From Methanobacteriota archaeon (lineage in GTDB: Archaea; Thermoplasmatota; Poseidoniia; Poseidoniales; Thalassarchaeaceae), in NCBI GenBank assembly GCA_018654845.1, contig JABIKU010000002.1:13729-77728 (forward strand): 64,000 nucleotides of DNA. Reading direction: 5' to 3'. Each line of letters begins with the position of its first letter. Positions within the stretch are counted from its first letter, which is position 1. Shown here one piece after another: positions 40,483-43,954 of the stretch. Below the pieces are notes generated by a model that was not told the origin of the DNA, made no database searches, and saw nothing but the letters and a program-made list of their open reading frames with translations. A program made the translations under genes and the position numbers.

Positions 40483-41547
40483 ATGTCGAAGCGAAGTCTT
40501 TCAAATCTAGCTTCGTTCATTCGCGACATTGGTAGTTCTTGTTCAAAGGTTAGAATCATCGATGGGGTATTGATTGCCGGCTCAATAAACGGCAAATTGA
40601 ATGGCTGGGCAACTTCGACTGGCGAACTGCTTTGGAGTGTCGAAATCGATGGTATCATCGCTGATTTCGATTTCGAAAATGATACAATTTACACAACCGG
40701 GCCGAATAAATTATTCGCATTCTCAACAAATACTGAAAAAATATTGTGGAGTGAAGAATTGGAGGGCGGTGGCGACTTTGTGCGAATAATCAATGAAGAA
40801 ATCTGGGTCACATCTTCAGTGTATGATATTGAAGTGTTTGATTTTATCGAGGCAACAACCCAGCGGTTTTCGAAGAGTGGAAAATTACTAGAAAAGTGGA
40901 TCATTAACGAACGGCCATGGTTCCTCGGCGCAACACAAGGGGATGTTATTCTCGGCTTAGGTCGCCCTCGTTGTGGTGGAGTTCGGGTTCTGCCTGGTGA
41001 GATGTCCGAGCATTTTTTGCTCAGTAGCAATCAACCTGTGACTTCAGGAGCGAATTCGATTGACCGAATTTATTTCGGTCATTCGGATGGGACTGTAAGC
41101 ACTATCGATTGCAAATCTTTGAAGATTAACGATACCGCTCATCCCTCGGATTCTCTCGTCACTTCGATTATTAGTTCAGAAAATGGTTGGATATCAGGCC
41201 ATGAAGATGGAACGATTTGTTTTGATAATATGGATTTTCATTTTGATGGTAAAATCGATTCCATCGCTAATTTTGATGGAAATTGTTGGGCTAGTTTTTC
41301 GAATAATGGTAAAACGAATCTTGTAATCATCGACTCTGCGCAAAGCCAAACTTTCCTGGCTCATGAAAATAGGGTTAGATTTACCCATTCCGCCGACAAG
41401 GGGCTTGCCCTCGGAGATGACTCGGGAAAAGTTCTATTTTTTGAAATTGAAGTTGTCAAGCGCAGACTCGCTGAAAGTAATAATTCAGAAAAAGATGAGA
41501 AAAAGAGGGGACTGCTCAAAGACCGTCTCCGTCAGCTTCGTAGTTGA
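40483..41547 (+). CDS. PQQ/WD40-like beta-propeller protein
   Basis: TGELLWSVE, TEKILWSEE, GHSDGTV, GHEDGTI, GDDSGKV blade-like repeats. Confidence 0.7.
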   Translation: MSKRSLSNLASFIRDIGSSCSKVRIIDGVLIAGSINGKLNGWATSTGELLWSVEIDGIIADFDFENDTIYTTGPNKLFAFSTNTEKILWSEELEGGGDFVRIINEEIWVTSSVYDIEVFDFIEATTQRFSKSGKLLEKWIINERPWFLGATQGDVILGLGRPRCGGVRVLPGEMSEHFLLSSNQPVTSGANSIDRIYFGHSDGTVSTIDCKSLKINDTAHPSDSLVTSIISSENGWISGHEDGTICFDNMDFHFDGKIDSIANFDGNCWASFSNNGKTNLVIIDSAQSQTFLAHENRVRFTHSADKGLALGDDSGKVLFFEIEVVKRRLAESNNSEKDEKKRGLLKDRLRQLRS

Positions 41548-41552
41548 TATTT

Positions 41553-41606
41553 TTACAGTGGAAATTAACAAAATCATACCCTTGCATACCCCTATTTCCA
41601 GTGGAC
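41553..41606. promoter_or_regulatory. Pair of inverted ORB-like (Orc1/Cdc6 box-like) motifs
   Basis: ttacagtggaaat at 41553-41565 (+) and gtccactggaaatagggg at 41606-41589 (-) resemble the archaeal ORB core TCCAnTGGAAA plus a G-string. Confidence 0.4.
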
Positions 41607-41621
41607 TGCGGCTCTATTGGA

Positions 41622-41633
41622 GAAAGGTTTATT
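41622..41633 (+). promoter_or_regulatory. Candidate archaeal BRE/TATA promoter for the downstream structured element
   Basis: gaaagg-tttatt about 25 nt upstream of the first cUUCGg hairpin. Confidence 0.45.
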
Positions 41634-41657
41634 GACCCGACCCGCACCTGAGAACTT

Positions 41658-42297
41658 TGCCGCTTCGGTGAAGGGGTGTGGGGCCGCTTAGGCGGAACCC
41701 GCGGGCCACAAGAACCGAGCCCCGGAAATGGGGCGGTAGAACCGGAGATCGAAAGAGAACCGGGGAAGAGTTGGAACGCCCTGTGGGCGGGAAAACAACG
41801 GGAGAACTGAGGTGGGAAGAACCGGACGAAAGGAAGGGGAAAGAAGCAACAGGGAAAGCTGAGGAAAACATAACCGAACTGTTTCGACAGGGAAAACACG
41901 ACCAAAACAGAAAACCATCCCGAAGAGGTAAACGAGCGAAGGGCGGGAACCAGCAATGGAACAGACCTGAGGCACGGGTACGGGAAAACGAAGAGGAAAA
42001 GAACTGGACGCAAGGAAGGGGAAAAGAAACGGAGAGGAAACGAACTGGGAACGAGAGCGCAGAAATGCGTGGAGGACCAATACCGAGACGTGAAAAGAAC
42101 TGGTGAGAGCTAGGGATGGAAGCGGAGACGGCGAAAGATGGAGAGATCCAACAAGAGTCGGAAAAGGACGAGGAGACACAAGTAGTCTCGGAGTCATCTA
42201 CCCTTGGAAAGCAGGGGCCTTAGGGCCCCGGCGGACCGGGGACCCTGCGGAGTAGCAGGGAAAATGCTCCCCCAATGTGCATTTTTCCTGCTGCTCC
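41658..42297 (+). ncRNA. Candidate large structured non-coding RNA (family not recognised)
   Basis: Intergenic; 33 T in 480 nt over 41701-42180; about 10 short hairpins with GNRA/UUCG/UUAG loops; G-U wobbles consistent with the + strand; repeated GAAC and GGAAAAC linkers. Confidence 0.65.
42249..42297 (+). other. 19-bp inverted repeat (3' stem of the candidate RNA, or a terminator-like hairpin between convergent units)
   Basis: ggagtagcagggaaaatgc (42249-42267) pairs with gcatttttcctgctgctcc (42279-42297); both deviations are G-U pairs on the + strand. Confidence 0.7.
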
Positions 42298-42352
42298 CAC
42301 CTAATTCAAAAGCCCATTATTTTCTAAGACCTTAGCGGAGCGTTTCTCAATT

Positions 42353-43954
42353 CTATTCTTTGGGCCCAATCATTAATTCTGGTCTGACCCATTCTTCGAA
42401 TTGTTGATCTGTTAACAATTTTAATTCGAGCGCGCTTTCTCTAAGCGTCAATCCTTTCGTGTGTGCATTTTTTGCTATTTTTGCAGCATTATCATAACCA
42501 ATATGTGGATTTAATGCTGTTACTAACATCAAGGAATTTTCAAGATGAGACTTGATATTATCTTCATTGGCTTCTAGACCAATTACACATTTATCGGAAA
42601 AAGATCGACAAGAATCTGAAATTATTCGAACGCTATGAAGAAGATTATGGATCATCATTGGCTTGTAGACATTGAGTTCAAAATTACCTTGGCTTCCACC
42701 GATTGAAATCGCAGTATTATTGCCCATAACTTGGCAACATACCATCGTCATCGCTTCAGCCTGGGTTGGGTTGACCTTGCCTGGCATGATACTAGATCCG
42801 GGTTCATTGGCCGGAAGTGCAAGTTCTCCAATACCGCATCGAGGACCTGATCCTAACCATCTGATATCATTGGCGATTTTCATTAGTGATGCAGCGAGTG
42901 TGTTAAGCGCTCCTGATGCAGCGACAATTGCATCATGTGCAGCCAATTGTGCAAATTTATTATCTGCGCTAATGAATTGTAATCCGGTTTTTTCAGCTAT
43001 TTTTTCTGCAACGTTTTCAGCAAAATCAGGATGTGTGTTCAGCCCTGTACCGACTGCCGTTCCACCTAGAGCAAGTTCCAGTAAATCGGTAAGTGCAGCA
43101 TCTATTCGGCGAAGATCGGCATCAAGCATCGAGACATATCCGCCAAATTCTTGACCGAGTGTCAAAGGTACGGCATCCATCAAATGGGTTCTACCAATTT
43201 TCACGATGTTTTCGAATTCTTTGGCTTTATTTGCGAGTACAGTGCGTAAATGACGTACTGCTGGAATTAATCGATGATGGAATTCCTCGGCTGCAGCGAT
43301 ATGCATTGCAGTCGGGAATGTGTCATTACTGGATTGTGCCCGATTGACATGGTCGTTCGGGTGAACTGGAGTTTTGCTTCCAAGAACACCATTTGTCAAC
43401 TCGATTGCACGGTTCGCAATAACTTCATTTGAATTCATGTTGGTTTGTGTTCCAGAACCAGTCTGCCAAATTCTGAGTGGAAAATGATCGTTGAGTGAAC
43501 CTGAAATTACTTCATCACAAACAACTGTAATCAAAGAACCGACCTGTTCATTGAGTTGACCGAGTTCGACATTGGTTTCGGCTGCTGCTTGTTTGAGAAT
43601 ACCAAAAGCGCGAATAATTGCATATGGCATTGTATCGGTTCCAATATCGAAGTTGATTAGTGAGCGGGCTGTTTGAGCGCCATAATATCGGTCTGCTTGA
43701 ACTTCCACTTCCCCCATAGTATCTTTTTCAATACGAATTTGTCCACTATCTGCACGAGCTGAACGGCTCGCAAACTCCGGCTCGAGTCTTCTTGGTTGAG
43801 CATCTGCTACAAGCGAGGTTTCAATCATTTTCGAAATTGTAGCAGAGCGCCCTCCTGTGCGCCCTTTGCCAACTCTTCTATCGAGTTTTTTTGCCAATTC
43901 TTCAGGTATACTGATGCTCATTATTCTGCGGTCGCCCGCTCGGTGCTTCACCAT
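42353..43954 (-). CDS. fumC: Class II fumarate hydratase with an N-terminal ribbon-helix-helix extension
   Basis: [49 protein letters not shown]; about 70 aa extra at the N-terminus. Confidence 0.96.

What the first reader, a model, noticed from the sequence alone, without database searches (positions are those of the whole stretch)
41658..42297. Candidate new class of large (~640 nt) U-poor, multi-hairpin ncRNA in an MGII-like archaeon
Seen: a long gap between convergent genes in an otherwise tightly packed genome, with only 33 T in 480 nt (41701-42180). Short stems carry stable RNA tetraloops: cgc-UUCG-gug (~41661), ccgc-UUAG-gcgg (41684-41695), gccccg-GAAA-uggggc (41719-41734), cugu-UUCG-acag (41879-41890), cca-GCAA-ugg (41950-41959), cgca-GAAA-ugcg (42058-42069), cuggu-GAGA-gcuag (42100-42113), ugga-GAGA-ucca (42139-42150), ggggcc-UUAG-ggcccc (42214-42229), then a 19-bp end stem. 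The imperfect pairs in these stems are G-U on the + strand and would be A-C mismatches on the - strand. A BRE/TATA-like gaaaggtttatt lies ~25 nt upstream. Known: GNRA/UUCG enrichment and strand-specific wobbles mark RNA-level selection; large bacterial ncRNAs such as OLE, GOLLD, ROOL and IMES are of broadly comparable scale. Inference: a stable RNA acting as a scaffold or protein sponge, matching no archaeal RNA I recognise.
Basis: partly seen in the sequence, partly recalled or inferred. Interest (0 to 1): 0.88.

Follow-up and report, generated by a model that had tools for sequence, protein, structure and literature searches.

The report
Large structured RNA in marine archaea
A stretch of about 650 bases between two protein genes of an ocean archaeon is a gene for a heavily folded non-coding RNA that is kept across its whole family, turns up in seawater RNA libraries from several studies, and matches no catalogued RNA family.

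Summary
Window 41659 to about 42305 (+) is a real gene for a large structured non-coding RNA. It has exactly 33 T in 41701-42180, the lowest count of any 480-nt span in the window. TTTA lies at a fixed distance upstream in 98 of 98 testable homologues. A 157-pair consensus structure is 90.9% canonical, and 102 of its pairs show compensatory change (44-55 in slid controls). G-U outnumbers A-C 971 to 213, which points to the + strand. Coding is rejected. Rfam gives no hit, and RNase P and SRP RNAs lie elsewhere in the genome. Homologues of 494-940 nt occupy the same slot (beta-propeller gene, RNA, convergent fumC). A model search found them in 66 of 74 genomes of the same family, named Thalassarchaeaceae (MGIIb) in several record titles, and in 5 of 74 of a sister family. 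It found essentially none outside the order. Contigs from four marine RNA libraries cover the RNA, but in three of them not the upstream gene. I read it as a stable architectural RNA with a conserved 5'/3' core and a modular hairpin array. Its function is untested. The ends and the strand are not measured. Identity with the unpublished-sequence 229-nt 'Tan1' RNA (2016) could not be checked.

The parts
41556..41609 (.). Upstream inverted repeat (arms 41556-41565 and 41594-41603) and conserved box ATTTCCAGTGGACTGC (41594-41609), just 5' of the promoter. It may be an operator or the end of the upstream gene's transcript.
   Evidence: Inverted repeat I3. The box is seen upstream of the promoter in the homologues listed. 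It is the only match with at most 2 mismatches in the 1.55-Mb genome that lies next to a promoter (4 loose matches, and only this one has the palindrome plus promoter).
41622..41635 (+). Archaeal BRE/TATA-like promoter GAAAGG-TTTATTGA.
   Evidence: TTTA lies exactly 29 nt before the UUGCCGCU anchor in 98 of 98 testable homologues. G-A-A-A at -35 to -32 occurs in 95-97 of 98. GAAA[GT]GTTTA[TA] occurs only twice in the genome. Promoter function is inferred, not measured.
41659..42305 (+). Body of the non-coding RNA, about 647 nt. The start is predicted from the TATA spacing and the end from the last conserved block CUCCCACC.
   Evidence: Conservation and covariation. RNA-library contigs cover 41676-42159 (X1) and many pieces between 41709 and 42314 (X2-X4). 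The ends are not measured.
41659..41677 (+). P1, the 5'-terminal hairpin (8 bp, 3-nt loop). It belongs to the universal 5' core UUGCCGCUYY...RRAGUGGUG.
   Evidence: 98.8% of cells paired and 3 pairs with double change in A2. 5 independent double-change events on the tree. Kept in the distant homologues L134 and L158-L165.
41678..41702 (+). P2 hairpin, with a UNCG-type loop in most homologues.
   Evidence: 6 of 9 pairs with double change. 10 events on the tree. Loop is UNCG in 60 of 79.
41703..41718 (+). Conserved joining segment GGGCCACAAGAACCGA. It holds the invariant block GCGGGCCAC (41701-41709). RNAalifold predicts its 5' part to pair with 42240-42245 (P3).
   Evidence: Conservation. P3 pairs are invariant (0 events), so the helix is unproven, and its 3' strand is not kept in distant homologues.
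41719..41734 (+). P4 hairpin.
   Evidence: 3 of 5 pairs with double change. 12 events on the tree.
41735..41740 (+). 5' strand of the predicted long-range helix P5. Its partner is 42197-42202, inside the conserved GAGUCAUCUACCC.
   Evidence: RNAalifold on 111 sequences. Only 1 double-change event, so support is weak.
41742..41796 (+). P6 (41742-41763, GNRA loop) and P7 (41770-41796).
   Evidence: P6: 6 of 6 pairs have events and 20 events in total. P7: 19 events. P6 loop is GNRA in 77 of 79.
41799..41922 (+). Domain closed by the long-range helix P8 (41799-41803 with 41918-41922). It holds P8a (41807-41852) and the optional module P8b (41859-41910).
   Evidence: P8: about 100% of cells canonical per pair, 4 of 5 pairs covary, 9 events. 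P8b is absent in groups 7 and 9, which is 34 of 111 sequences. P8a loop is GNRA in 78 of 79.
41927..42084 (+). Domain closed by the long-range helix P9 (41927-41931 with 42080-42084). It holds P9a (41933-41976), P9b (41980-42043, a paralogue of P8a) and P9c (42046-42079).
   Evidence: Events on the tree: P9 3, P9a 13, P9b 22, P9c 17. Internal duplication 41798-41842 against 41980-42024, 80% identical.
42089..42195 (+). P10 (42089-42124), P11 (42129-42160) and P12 (42167-42195).
   Evidence: Events on the tree: 20, 32 and 11. GNRA loops in 52 of 79 (P10) and 77 of 79 (P11).
42204..42299 (+). 3' domain. It comprises P13 (42204-42239), the block GGACCCUGCGGAGU (42240-42253), and the long terminal hairpin P14 (42246-42299) with the conserved loop CCCCCA and the closing GGAGU/GCUCC.
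   Evidence: P13 13 events and P14 20 events. A 3' core of the form GCGGAG-hairpin-CUCCCA is kept in distant homologues found by the 5' model alone. The invariance of the two blocks within the 108-sequence set is partly by construction, because they were the retrieval pattern.
42318..42326 (+). T-rich run TTATTTTCT, about 20 nt after the last conserved block. It is a candidate archaeal oligo-T terminator.
   Evidence: Read directly. A run of at least 4 T lies within 60 nt downstream in 57 of 94 homologues examined. One RNA contig in X3 ends with adapter sequence at 42314. Inferred only.
40483..41547 (+). Upstream neighbour: a 354-aa beta-propeller-like protein (weak PQQ_2 / WD40 matches), always directly upstream of the RNA.
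   Evidence: Pfam (below the curated cut-offs). Synteny. It also occurs directly against fumC in a genome that lacks the RNA (G032), so it does not depend on the RNA.
42353..43954 (-). Downstream neighbour: fumarate hydratase class II (fumC), convergent with the RNA.
   Evidence: Lyase_1 at 4.1e-112 and FumaraseC_C at 2.3e-25. Convergent fumC is seen wherever the locus reaches far enough, apart from L026 and L112.

Best explanation
Window 41659 to about 42305 (+) is a free-standing gene for a large (about 650 nt here, 494-940 nt in relatives), purine-rich, U-poor, highly structured non-coding RNA.

It is transcribed from its own strong BRE/TATA promoter (41622-41635) and probably ends at a T-run about 20 nt after its last hairpin. 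The RNA works as a folded molecule. It does not work through a protein product or as a leader of a neighbouring gene.

A universally conserved core is built from the two ends. At the 5' end are hairpins P1 and P2 plus the GCGGGCCAC...AACCGA joiner. At the 3' end is GCGGAG-long hairpin-CUCCCA. This core frames a hierarchical array of about a dozen short hairpins. The hairpins are grouped by long-range helices P8 and P9, capped mostly by GNRA or UNCG tetraloops, and linked by A-rich (A)GAAC-type segments. Modules in this array have been duplicated, lost or expanded during evolution.

I read it as a stable, abundant architectural RNA, that is, the scaffold of a ribonucleoprotein or of an RNA assembly with a housekeeping-type role in Poseidoniales cells. 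The core would be the functional centre and the hairpin array a fold-stabilising and binding platform.

Shown: conservation, secondary structure, non-coding nature, fixed genomic slot, and presence in RNA libraries.
Inferred: strand, ends, promoter use, stability and the scaffold role.
For: (1) Conservation. A DNA match was found in 15 of 17 other genomes of the genus at 74-96% identity over the full length. An exact two-block pattern found 108 stretches among one genome each of 185,579 species. Of these, 107 are homologues by nhmmer, and the one exception is a Microbacterium record. The 5'-domain covariance model R1 hit 66 of 74 genomes of the family, 5 of 74 of a sister family and 0 of 2 of a third. 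Outside the order it gave only 1 marginal hit (E 0.0076) in about 126 genomes. Two genomes of genus g3 that R1 missed carry an approximately 850-nt homologue at the same site.

(2) Structure. RNAalifold on 111 sequences gives 157 pairs. On 79 representatives below 97% identity, 90.9% of cells are canonical. 102 pairs have a change on both sides, against 44-55 with the partner slid by 1-3 columns and 79.3 +/- 3.3 in 200 column shuffles. For the 5' domain in A2, 24 of 36 pairs have double change against 6-15 when slid, and 0 of 500 shuffles reach any of the five measures. Parsimony on a tree gives 250 independent canonical-to-canonical double changes. Every helix has 3-32 of them, except P3 (0) and P5 (1).

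(3) Loop class is kept while loop sequence varies. GNRA occurs in 77/79 (P6), 78/79 (P8a), 77/79 (P11) and 68/79 (P9c). UNCG occurs in 60/79 (P2).

(4) Strand. G-U cells number 971 and A-C cells 213. In G000 the counts are 14 G-U and 0 A-C. The promoter is on the + strand. Fold z is -4.42 on + against -2.23 on -.

(5) Not coding. 12 of 242 indels are multiples of three. 76 of 78 homologues have in-frame stops in the longest + ORF. There is no codon periodicity (258/299/272). Pfam gives no hit.

(6) Defined architecture rather than a loose repeat array. Segment lengths between landmarks are nearly constant across nine sequence groups, for example 43-45, 38-40 and 56-59 nt.

(7) Transcription. 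18 runs on record as RNA, among 20 holders from 14 studies, hold the stretch. 17 runs hold half or more of the query's words. The RNA makes up 0.68 of the 951-nt query and the best shares are 0.70. In the four runs laid, RNA-library contigs cover the RNA. The upstream gene (41416-41631) has no contig in any of them, and 41200-41415 has one only in X2. Contig word depths on the RNA are 1e4 to 4.5e5 in X2-X4, against 0-717 on the flanks. By the tool's own caveat this is indicative only.

(8) Single copy, chromosomal and vertically inherited. The slot beta-propeller, RNA, convergent fumC is seen wherever flanks are held, apart from L026 and L112 where no fumC match was found. The genome holds no paralogue. 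Nothing was found in viral contigs or phage records.
Against: - No function has been tested. 'Scaffold' is an inference from architecture, abundance and distribution.
- The strand, the 5' end and the 3' end are not measured, because the runs laid were contigs, which cannot show them.
- The two helices that would tie the 3' domain to the 5' part have essentially no covariation (P3: 0 events, P5: 1 event). The 3' strand of P3 is not conserved in distant homologues.
- The 108-sequence set was retrieved with a pattern taken from the 3' core. Invariance of that core within the set is therefore partly circular.
- My MAFFT alignment is not structure-guided, and the structure was derived from the same alignment, which favours it over the slid controls.
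- The words AACCG, GAACC and AGAAC are the most over-represented (z 8-11). One lineage carries a run of GGAAC repeats. Both fit a multivalent binding (sponge) role as well as a scaffold.
- The RNA was not found in sister-family genera g10, g11 and g13 (0 of 54). In G032 the flanking genes abut. It is therefore dispensable for some Poseidoniales.
Confidence: 0.55

Rival explanations
1. Protein (or RNA) sponge. The RNA's job is to present many copies of a short purine-rich motif, (A)GAAC(C/U)G or GGAAC, on a hairpin array. It would thereby titrate a regulator, as CsrB/RsmZ do with GGA motifs in bacteria.
For: AACCG (66 observed, 18.3 expected, z 10.9), GAACC (z 9.3) and AGAAC (z 8.0) are the most enriched words across 11 lineage representatives. 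G000 has 15 GAAC, most of them just 5' of a stem. The g3 homologue has a run of at least 8 GGAAC at 8-11-nt spacing. Modules are duplicated and vary in number. The RNA is abundant in RNA libraries.
Against: GAAC copy number ranges from 2 to 21, and the most populous group has only 4. Helix positions, lengths and loop classes are fixed, which is unlike known sponges. The most conserved parts are the unique 5'/3' core, not the repeats. The word counts are not independent across related sequences. I recall no CsrA-like partner in archaea; this was not tested here.
Confidence: 0.2
2. Large ribozyme or catalytic RNP. The invariant unpaired nucleotides of the 5'/3' core form an active site, and the hairpin array is peripheral stabilising structure, as in RNase P or group I/II introns.
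For: The RNA has a conserved core with variable periphery. Invariant single-stranded blocks sit in junctions. Many GNRA loops are kept by class, which is typical of RNAs with tetraloop-receptor tertiary folds. The domain architecture is hierarchical.
Against: There is no match to any ribozyme family in Rfam. No substrate or reaction is suggested by the context. There is no evidence of self-cleavage or splicing joints, and the only joints seen are lineage indel variants.
Confidence: 0.08
3. Precursor that is processed. The conserved 5' and 3' ends would be processing signals, and the stable product would be a shorter internal RNA, possibly including the 229-nt Tan1 reported in 2016.
For: Tan1 is described as an abundant, structured MG-II RNA with homologues at 75-79% identity, all from Thalassoarchaea (PMC5069720, passages). 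That is the same clade and the same divergence range as here. Contigs carrying adapter sequence begin at 41673, 41679 and 41700 and end at 41799, 42080 and 42314.
Against: Covariation runs through the whole length, including P13 and P14. Adapter junctions in contigs are fragment ends, not proven RNA ends. The same paper's lengths for RNase P (292-306 nt) and SRP RNA (305-315 nt) look accurate, so a 229-nt RNA is more likely a different gene. No circular or back-joined contig was reported.
Confidence: 0.08
4. Cis-acting element of a neighbour: a long 3' UTR or terminator region of the beta-propeller gene, or an antisense or convergent-transcription regulator of fumC.
For: The position next to both genes is invariant. 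One RNA-library contig in X2 (1890 nt) and one in X4 (790 nt) run from inside the RNA into fumC.
Against: The RNA has its own conserved promoter 75 nt after the upstream stop codon. The upstream gene is not assembled in three of four RNA libraries that hold the RNA. Both neighbours exist without the RNA in G032. About 650 nt of covarying structure is far beyond a terminator or UTR element.
Confidence: 0.03
5. Protein-coding gene for a low-complexity, disordered protein: the 142-aa + strand ORF or the 165-169-aa - strand ORFs.
For: Long ORFs exist on both strands. Gene callers have deposited such 'proteins': 7 clusters for the - strand ORF and 3 clusters for a + strand ORF of a relative.
Against: ORFs are expected by composition, because all three stop codons need T on the + strand and A on the - strand, and both are scarce. 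12 of 242 indels keep frame. 76 of 78 homologues carry in-frame stops. There is no third-position excess. There is no Pfam family, and the only source-given name is 'hypothetical protein'.
Confidence: 0.01

Closest known systems
OLE RNA (ornate, large, extremophilic; bacterial Firmicutes)
   Same: It is about 600 nt, intricately structured, exceptionally highly expressed, single copy in a conserved gene neighbourhood, and has no known biochemical activity. It acts as an RNP scaffold with partner proteins. (I saw the abstract of PMC3413148 in the listing. The rest is recalled.)
   Different: No sequence or structure match: the Rfam scan at E<=10 gave no OLE hit. This RNA is in Archaea, not Bacteria. 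It has its own promoter rather than sitting in an operon. No partner gene was identified next to it, and the adjacent beta-propeller also exists without the RNA.
ROOL and GOLLD RNAs (giant ornate bacterial/phage RNAs that form RNA-only multimeric cages)
   Same: The size class (about 600-800 nt) is similar, as are the many hairpins with structured loops and the unknown function. A self-assembling RNA-only particle is a possible reading here. (I saw the abstract of 10.1101/2024.12.08.627333 in the listing.)
   Different: No Rfam match. This RNA is chromosomal, single copy and vertically inherited, and is not found in viral contigs or phage records. It is not tRNA-associated: the 64-kb window has no tRNA hit at all. 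Multimerisation is untested.
Tan1 (Thalassoarchaea ncRNA 1; Hou et al. 2016, PMC5069720)
   Same: It is an abundant non-coding RNA of MG-II / Thalassoarchaea in marine metatranscriptomes. It has a 'complex secondary structure' and homologues at 75-79% identity (passages read).
   Different: It is reported as 229 nt, against about 650 nt here. Its sequence is only in a figure and supplements that I could not see, so identity, overlap or independence could not be tested. It has no Rfam family that hits this window.
Archaeal RNase P RNA and SRP RNA
   Same: These are abundant, structured, single-copy housekeeping RNAs with a conserved core and variable periphery. They share the same kind of GC-rich island in an AT-rich genome.
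   Different: Both are present elsewhere in this genome: RNase P at 234.4 bits on contig C6 and SRP at 120.2 bits on C14. This RNA is twice their length and matches neither model.
CsrB/RsmZ-type sponge RNAs
   Same: They are multi-hairpin, abundant RNAs with a short purine motif repeated many times.
   Different: Those are bacterial, shorter, carry the motif in loops, and have loosely conserved architecture. Here the helix order, lengths and loop classes are fixed, and the unique core is the most conserved part.

Membership tests
Archaeal RNase P RNA (RF00373) | Match to the covariance model at or above 84 bits (conserved P4 core) | tested here: not met
   No hit in the window at gathering level or at E<=10. 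The genome's RNase P RNA is at G000:C6:16946-17240, 234.4 bits.
Archaeal SRP RNA (RF01857) | Match to the covariance model at or above 96.5 bits | tested here: not met
   No hit in the window. The genome's SRP RNA is at G000:C14:36719-37031, 120.2 bits.
Any Rfam 15 family (4227 models). From recall, these include OLE, ROOL, GOLLD, HEARO, IMES-1 to 4, ribozymes and riboswitches. | Score at or above the family's gathering threshold | tested here: not met
   0 matches in 64 kb at gathering level. At E<=10 on 41400-42500 there are only mir-451, mir-761 and mir-1976 on the end hairpin and snoZ178. All are 15-26 bits against thresholds of 66-100.
Tan1 (Hou et al. 2016) | Sequence identity or overlap with the published 229-nt RNA | not testable with these tools
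   The sequence is not in the text held (three mentions, and the figure legend gives only a title). Supplements are closed.
Structured non-coding RNA (general) | Compensatory base-pair changes above controls, and no reading-frame conservation | tested here: met
   102 of 157 pairs have double change against 44-55 when slid. 24 of 36 against 6-15, with 0 of 500 shuffles reaching the observed values. 250 independent events on the tree. Coding tests are negative.
Structured non-coding RNA (general) | Transcribed as a discrete RNA from the predicted strand | tested here: inconclusive
   Contigs of four RNA libraries cover it. The adjacent upstream gene is absent in three of them and barely present in one. 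Contigs cannot give strand or ends.
CsrB-like sponge RNA | Many copies of one short motif exposed in loops or linkers, with copy number the main conserved trait | tested here: inconclusive
   GAAC-type words are enriched (z 6-11), but copy number is 2-21 per homologue and the architecture is fixed.
Box C/D sRNA cluster or precursor | C box RUGAUGA and D box CUGA pairs flanking guides | tested here: not met
   Reading the sequence, I found no UGAUGA in 41659-42305. CUGA occurs, but without a C-box partner. The only Rfam snoRNA hit is 15.4 bits against a threshold of 100.
Protein-coding gene | Frame-preserving indels, third-position bias, and an open frame in homologues | tested here: not met
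   12 of 242 indels are multiples of 3. Substitutions by codon position are 258/299/272. 76 of 78 homologues have in-frame stops.
Mobile or viral element RNA (as ROOL/GOLLD often are) | Occurrence in viral or plasmid records, variable location, multiple copies | tested here: not met
   0 matches in viral contigs and in phage records. One copy per genome. The exception is G071 with two hits on two contigs. Synteny is conserved.

The most novel reading that the evidence does not exclude
This is the first 'giant ornate' RNA class of Archaea. It would be a 0.5-0.9-kb RNA with a compact, GNRA-stitched three-dimensional fold that forms an abundant RNP or RNA-only particle, or a new ribozyme. It would also be among the most abundant non-ribosomal transcripts of MGIIb cells in the surface ocean.

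One corollary follows. The 2016 report that 93% of euryarchaeal RNA-seq reads came from 13 'mRNAs' for intrinsically disordered proteins (one cluster annotated as collagen-like) would be explained by spurious ORFs called over this RNA. The + strand of the RNA translates to G/E/K/R-rich low-complexity sequence. In one lineage the GGAAC repeats translate to Gly-Thr-Glu repeats.
Probability: 0.25. Interest if true: 0.95.

Novelty: categorically new. Interest (0 to 1): 0.86.

Why it matters
Marine Group II archaea are among the most abundant planktonic archaea of the surface ocean and remain uncultured (abstract of PMC6461757 in the listing).

Every genus of one of their two main families that I sampled turns out to carry a 0.5-0.9-kb RNA gene. 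It has its own strong promoter, a deeply covarying fold and heavy representation in seawater RNA libraries. It appears in no RNA database and is not named in the MGII transcript paper I checked by term search (PMC9723583). From recall, apart from rRNA no structured non-coding RNA class of this size is established in Archaea. The known giant ornate RNAs (OLE, ROOL, GOLLD) are bacterial or phage-borne.

The find gives RNA structural biology a new, well-sampled family: more than 100 species-level sequences, three or more length classes, and natural module deletions.

It gives marine microbiology a marker transcript for MGIIb activity. It also gives a concrete reason to re-examine reads assigned to 'hypothetical' or 'disordered' proteins at this locus. 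Gene callers have already deposited at least ten spurious protein clusters over it.

Tried and rejected
Rfam at both thresholds: nothing usable. The miRNA-type hits merely reflect the long end hairpin.

RNase P or SRP identity: rejected, because both RNAs are elsewhere in the genome.

Coding: rejected.

Tandem repeat: TRF finds none. There is only a diverged 45-nt internal duplication.

Antisense regulator with long targets: a blastn-short search of the RNA against its own genome gives only 13-15-nt matches at E >= 0.78. This offers no support.

Regulon for the upstream box: there is no second promoter-linked copy in the genome.

Mobile or viral origin: no match in viral contigs or phage records.

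RNA ends and relative abundance of parts from read laying:
- Summed contig depth is low in 41632-41685.
- Depth falls after about 42117 (X2), 42162 (X3), 42206 (X4) and 42159 (X1).
- The 3' hairpin region sits on contigs of depth 5.6-717 that run on into fumC.
- I considered a shorter mature RNA ending before P13.
- I do not rest anything on this. The fall lies at a different place in each run. Contigs give one depth each. The tool states that such holes and depths cannot rank parts of a gene.
- The 'skips 152' and 'skips 119' joints carry other letters between the two sides. They match lineage variants that lack module P8b, not splicing.

Looking for a separate 229-nt Tan1 candidate:
- I listed ORF-free stretches of at least 150 nt in the laid genome by GC content (214 regions).
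- I fetched 16 of the top ones and scanned them with Rfam. The hits were 7 tRNAs, 5S rRNA and 23S rRNA, and nothing else.
- The remaining regions were not studied further, so this neither finds nor excludes another abundant RNA.

Link to the 'collagen-like' or IDP genes of Hou et al.: protein searches with the - strand ORF (7 clusters) and with a + strand ORF of relative L165 (3 clusters) returned only unnamed entries or 'hypothetical protein'. The link remains a lead. Table S5 and Figure S6 of that paper, which I could not see, would settle it.

Alternative pairings of invariant blocks were considered by eye. These were 41699-41705 with 42244-42250, 41675-41683 with 42294-42301, and 5' CCGC with 3' GCGG. 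I did not adopt them. They compete with P1, P2 and P14, which have covariation, and they cannot themselves be tested on invariant columns.

K-turn or K-loop reading of the repeated CC-GGA-C-GNRA-G-GAA-GG module: the 3' strand reads G-A-A next to the stem rather than the G-A required (recalled consensus), so I did not file it as a K-turn.

Two runs labelled rhizosphere and peat metagenome hold about half of the words.

Literature searches for a prior description and term searches in PMC8049014 and PMC9723583 found only Tan1. Shi et al. 2009 and Weinberg et al. 2009 are not held, so an earlier sighting among their marine RNAs cannot be excluded.


Full report
What is in the sequence.

Between the stop codon of a + strand ORF (40483-41547) and the stop codon of a - strand fumarase C gene (42353-43954) lies an 805-nt gap. 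The ORF encodes a beta-propeller-like protein with only weak PQQ_2/WD40 matches. The core of the gap is compositionally unlike anything else in the 64-kb window. Positions 41701-42180 hold A188, G173, C86 and T33. 33 is the lowest T count of any 480-nt span in the window (median 130, 1st percentile 90). GC rises to 0.52-0.60 from 0.34-0.45 in the flanks. The + strand folds at -214.3 kcal/mol (z = -4.42 against 20 dinucleotide shuffles). The - strand gives z = -2.23.

It is conserved far beyond an intergenic spacer.

A DNA search of relatives found the whole approximately 655-nt stretch in 15 of 17 other genomes of the genus at 74-96% identity. It also found it in three further genera of the family. 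It found nothing in 16 genomes of two sister families. A two-block exact pattern from the 3' end found 108 stretches among one genome each of 185,579 species. Of the 80 titles shown, 79 are Poseidoniales, Thalassarchaeaceae, MGII or unclassified archaeal MAGs, and one is a Microbacterium. The Microbacterium record has no further similarity. Of the 108 stretches, 100 hold the element from its 5' core to its 3' core. Seven are cut by contig ends. Lengths run from 494 to 865 nt, with modes at 586 and 660-675. Three apparently longer ones contain runs of N.

A covariance model of the 5' 143 positions (R1) hit 66 of 74 sampled genomes of the family, 0 of 2 of a second family and 5 of 74 of a third. 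The third-family hits were in genera g20 (2/2) and g12 (3/10). Genera g10, g11 and g13 gave 0 of 54. Outside the order there was one marginal hit (E 0.0076) among about 126 genomes of the phylum.

The model under-counts. Genus g3 scored 0 of 3, yet two of its genomes carry an approximately 850-nt homologue at the expected site, with promoter, 5' core and 3' core. GC-rich genus g2 keeps only the two cores around a different, UUCG-capped hairpin array. The homologue in G024 is about 940 nt.

The genomic slot is the same wherever flanks are held, except that L026 and L112 gave no fumC match. The order is M32 carboxypeptidase, beta-propeller gene, RNA, then convergent fumC. In G032 (g11) the propeller gene abuts fumC with no room for the RNA. 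In G026, G031, G028 and G034 another gene lies there, and nothing RNA-like is seen. The element is thus an old, vertically inherited, single-copy chromosomal gene of Poseidoniales. It is present in all 14 family genera sampled and is patchy in the sister family. It was not found in viral contigs or phage records.

It is an RNA, not a protein gene.

Long ORFs exist on both strands, but they follow from composition. All three stop codons need T on the + strand and A on the - strand, and both are scarce. Against relatives, 12 of 242 indels are multiples of three. Substitutions fall evenly on the three codon positions (258/299/272). 76 of 78 homologues carry in-frame stops in the longest + ORF. 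Pfam finds nothing.

The alignment is instead full of compensatory changes. RNAalifold on 18 sequences gave 132 pairs, 52 of them with double changes. On 111 sequences it gave 157 pairs. From the 118 sequences I had dropped 7: four longer than 830 nt, three of which hold runs of N, and three with more than 3 N.

On 79 representatives below 97% identity, 90.9% of pair cells are canonical, against 35-45% when the 3' partner is slid by 1-3 columns. 102 pairs show a change on both sides, against 44-55 when slid and 79.3 +/- 3.3 in 200 column shuffles. The session's pair-counting tool, run on an independent MAFFT alignment of the 5' domain (31 sequences, 36 pairs), gave 91.3% paired. 24 pairs had double change, against 6-15 when slid. 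0 of 500 shuffles reached any of the five measures.

Counting events rather than sequences, Fitch parsimony on a FastTree tree gives 250 independent canonical-to-canonical double changes. Every helix has 3-32 of them, except P3 (0) and P5 (1).

Hairpin loops are kept by class while their letters change. GNRA occurs in 77/79 (P6), 78/79 (P8a), 77/79 (P11), 68/79 (P9c), 62/79 (P9b), 59/79 (P9a tip) and 52/79 (P10). UNCG occurs in 60/79 (P2).

Caveats apply. The structure was derived from the same alignment. The alignment is not structure-guided, and many 'non-canonical' events in P9a, P11 and P13 look like misalignment. The sequence set was retrieved by a 3' pattern.

Strand, promoter and ends.

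G-U pairs outnumber A-C oppositions 971 to 213 across the family and 14 to 0 in this genome. This is expected only if the + strand is the RNA. GAAAGG-TTTATTGA (41622-41635) is a textbook archaeal BRE/TATA (recalled consensus). TTTA lies exactly 29 nt before the conserved UUGCCGCU in 98 of 98 testable homologues, and G-A-A-A precedes it in 95-97 of 98. With the usual spacing of about 24-27 nt from the TATA centre (recalled), the start falls at about 41657-41660, at the foot of hairpin P1. After the last conserved block (CUCCCACC, to 42301) comes a T-rich run at 42318-42326. A run of at least 4 T lies within 60 nt in 57 of 94 homologues. Both ends are inferred.

Upstream of the promoter, a 10-nt inverted repeat and the box ATTTCCAGTGGACTGC are conserved across the family. 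They have no second promoter-linked copy in the genome.

Transcription.

20 runs from 14 studies hold the 951-nt query, 18 of them on record as RNA. 17 runs hold half or more of its words. The top shares (0.70) equal the share of the query that the RNA occupies (0.68). I laid four runs from four studies, and all were Logan contigs. In each, contigs at least 90% alike cover the RNA. In X1 they cover 41676-42049 and 42020-42159, and in X2-X4 there are dozens to hundreds of short contigs. The upstream gene has no contig in X1, X3 and X4, and one contig of depth 5 in X2. DNA contamination therefore cannot explain the cover. Contig word depths on the RNA reach 1e4 to 4.5e5 in X2-X4, against 0-717 on the flanks. 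The tool warns that such depths cannot rank genes, so I take them only as a sign of high abundance. Contigs cannot show strand or ends. What I tried on the ends is under Tried and rejected.

Architecture (window coordinates).
- P1: 41659-41677.
- P2: 41678-41702.
- Invariant joiner: GCGGGCCAC...AACCGA.
- P4: 41719-41734.
- P6: 41742-41763.
- P7: 41770-41796.
- P8 domain: closed by the long-range helix 41799-41803 / 41918-41922. About 100% of cells are canonical per pair, and 4 of 5 pairs covary. It holds P8a and P8b.
- P9 domain: closed by 41927-41931 / 42080-42084. It holds P9a, P9b and P9c.
- P10: 42089-42124.
- P11: 42129-42160.
- P12: 42167-42195.
- P13: 42204-42239.
- P14: the long terminal hairpin 42246-42299.

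RNAalifold also predicts two enclosing helices, P3 (41703-07 / 42240-45) and P5 (41735-40 / 42197-202). They rest on invariant columns and are unproven.

P8a and P9b are paralogous modules (45 nt, 80% identical). P8b is missing from two sequence groups, which is 34 of 111 sequences. Other groups carry expansions in P8a, P8b, P9b and P12. All other segment lengths are nearly constant.

Across the most distant homologues, only three elements stay alignable. These are the promoter, the 5' core (UUGCCGCUYY-loop-RRAGUGGUG, P2 and an AAACCGAG motif) and the 3' core (GCGGAG-long hairpin-CUCCCA).

The linkers are A-rich and repeatedly read (A)GAAC(C/U)G. AACCG, GAACC and AGAAC are the most over-represented words (z 8-11). 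The g3 homologue has a run of at least 8 GGAAC.

How it most likely works.

The fixed order, length and loop class of the helices point to a defined three-dimensional fold. So do the hierarchical long-range closures, the invariant junction nucleotides, the conserved core with variable periphery, the strong dedicated promoter, the abundance and the family-wide vertical inheritance. An RNA with these traits acts as such, as RNase P RNA, SRP RNA or the bacterial OLE RNA do. I therefore commit to an abundant architectural RNA, the scaffold of an RNP or RNA assembly, at about 0.55.

A multivalent sponge is the main rival (0.2). The repeated GAAC motif and module duplication support it. The wide range of motif copy number (2-21) and the rigid architecture weaken it. 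The other rivals are a ribozyme (0.08), a processed precursor (0.08), a cis element of a neighbour (0.03) and a coding gene (0.01).

The U-poverty may serve to avoid internal oligo-U termination and AU-directed decay in an AT-rich genome. This is my inference and is untested.

Comparison with what is known, and novelty.

Rfam 15 (4227 models) has nothing for it. The genome's RNase P and SRP RNAs are elsewhere. Eight full-text searches found one possibly related report. Hou et al. 2016 (PMC5069720; abstract and passages read) describe 'Tan1'. It is a 229-nt abundant MG-II RNA with five homologues at 75-79% identity in Thalassoarchaea metagenomes. Its sequence is only in a figure and supplements that I could not see.

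That paper's lengths for RNase P and SRP RNAs are accurate, so a 229-nt RNA may well be a different gene. I cannot exclude that it is part of this one.

The same paper reports that 93% of euryarchaeal RNA-seq reads came from 13 'mRNAs', all for intrinsically disordered proteins, with one cluster annotated as collagen-like. The + strand of this RNA translates into G/E/K/R-rich low-complexity sequence. In g3 the GGAAC repeats translate into Gly-Thr-Glu repeats. Gene callers have deposited ORFs over this RNA as proteins. This makes a mis-annotation explanation plausible, but it is unproven.

A 2021 MGII transcript study (PMC9723583) gave no match for 'hypothetical' or 'unannotated' in a term search, and none of the passages shown mentions such an RNA. 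Two older marine small-RNA papers are not held.

On present evidence this is a new RNA class with no detectable relative. From recall, it is the largest structured non-ribosomal RNA family seen so far in Archaea.

Noticed in passing
window 41556-41609: A 10-nt inverted repeat (CAGTGGAAAT / ATTTCCAGTG, 28 nt apart) and the box ATTTCCAGTGGACTGC sit just upstream of the RNA's BRE/TATA. A GGAAAT...ATTTCC palindrome is kept even in sister-family homologues. It could be an operator for a regulator of the RNA, or the end of the upstream transcript.
   Followed up: partly
PMC5069720, relative to window 41659-42305: Hou et al. 2016 attribute 93% of euryarchaeal RNA-seq reads to 13 mRNAs for 'intrinsically disordered proteins', with one cluster annotated as collagen-like. 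Spurious ORFs over this purine-rich RNA would look exactly like that. Their Table S5 and Figure S6 could not be seen.
   Followed up: partly
L165 (G019, genus g3), within the RNA; printed: The approximately 850-nt g3 homologue holds a run of at least 8 GGAAC motifs at 8-11-nt spacing. In one frame this translates as Gly-Thr-Glu repeats.
   Followed up: partly
window 41688-42197 (-) and L165:1010-1399 (+): Public protein collections hold gene-caller 'proteins' predicted over this RNA. There are 7 clusters for the - strand ORF and 3 for a + strand ORF of a relative. They are unnamed or 'hypothetical protein'. These are probably annotation artefacts.
   Followed up: yes
G071:C34:72762-72907 and G071:C42:2938-3083: One genome of genus g16 (97% complete, 3% contamination) has two full-score hits of the 5' domain on two contigs. 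Every other genome has one. This could be a duplication, two strains binned together, or contamination.
   Followed up: no
window 40483-41547 (+): The beta-propeller-like gene upstream evolves much faster than its neighbours. It is 28-45% identical between genera, against 70-88% for fumC and the M32 carboxypeptidase. It ends in a K/E/R-rich tail. Its Pfam matches are below the curated cut-offs.
   Followed up: no
window 1-64000: The Rfam gathering-level scan found no RNA gene of any kind, not even a tRNA, in the whole 64-kb window.
   Followed up: no
runs X10 and X11: Two RNA runs labelled rhizosphere and peat metagenome hold about half of the query's words, like the seawater runs. Cross-sample carry-over or mislabelling is possible.
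   Followed up: no
joints 41842>41995 (X2, X3) and 41878>41998 (X4): RNA-library contigs join across 119-152 nt of the RNA, with 4-33 other letters in between. This is as expected if co-occurring lineages with a shorter P8b/P9a region are also transcribed.
   Followed up: partly
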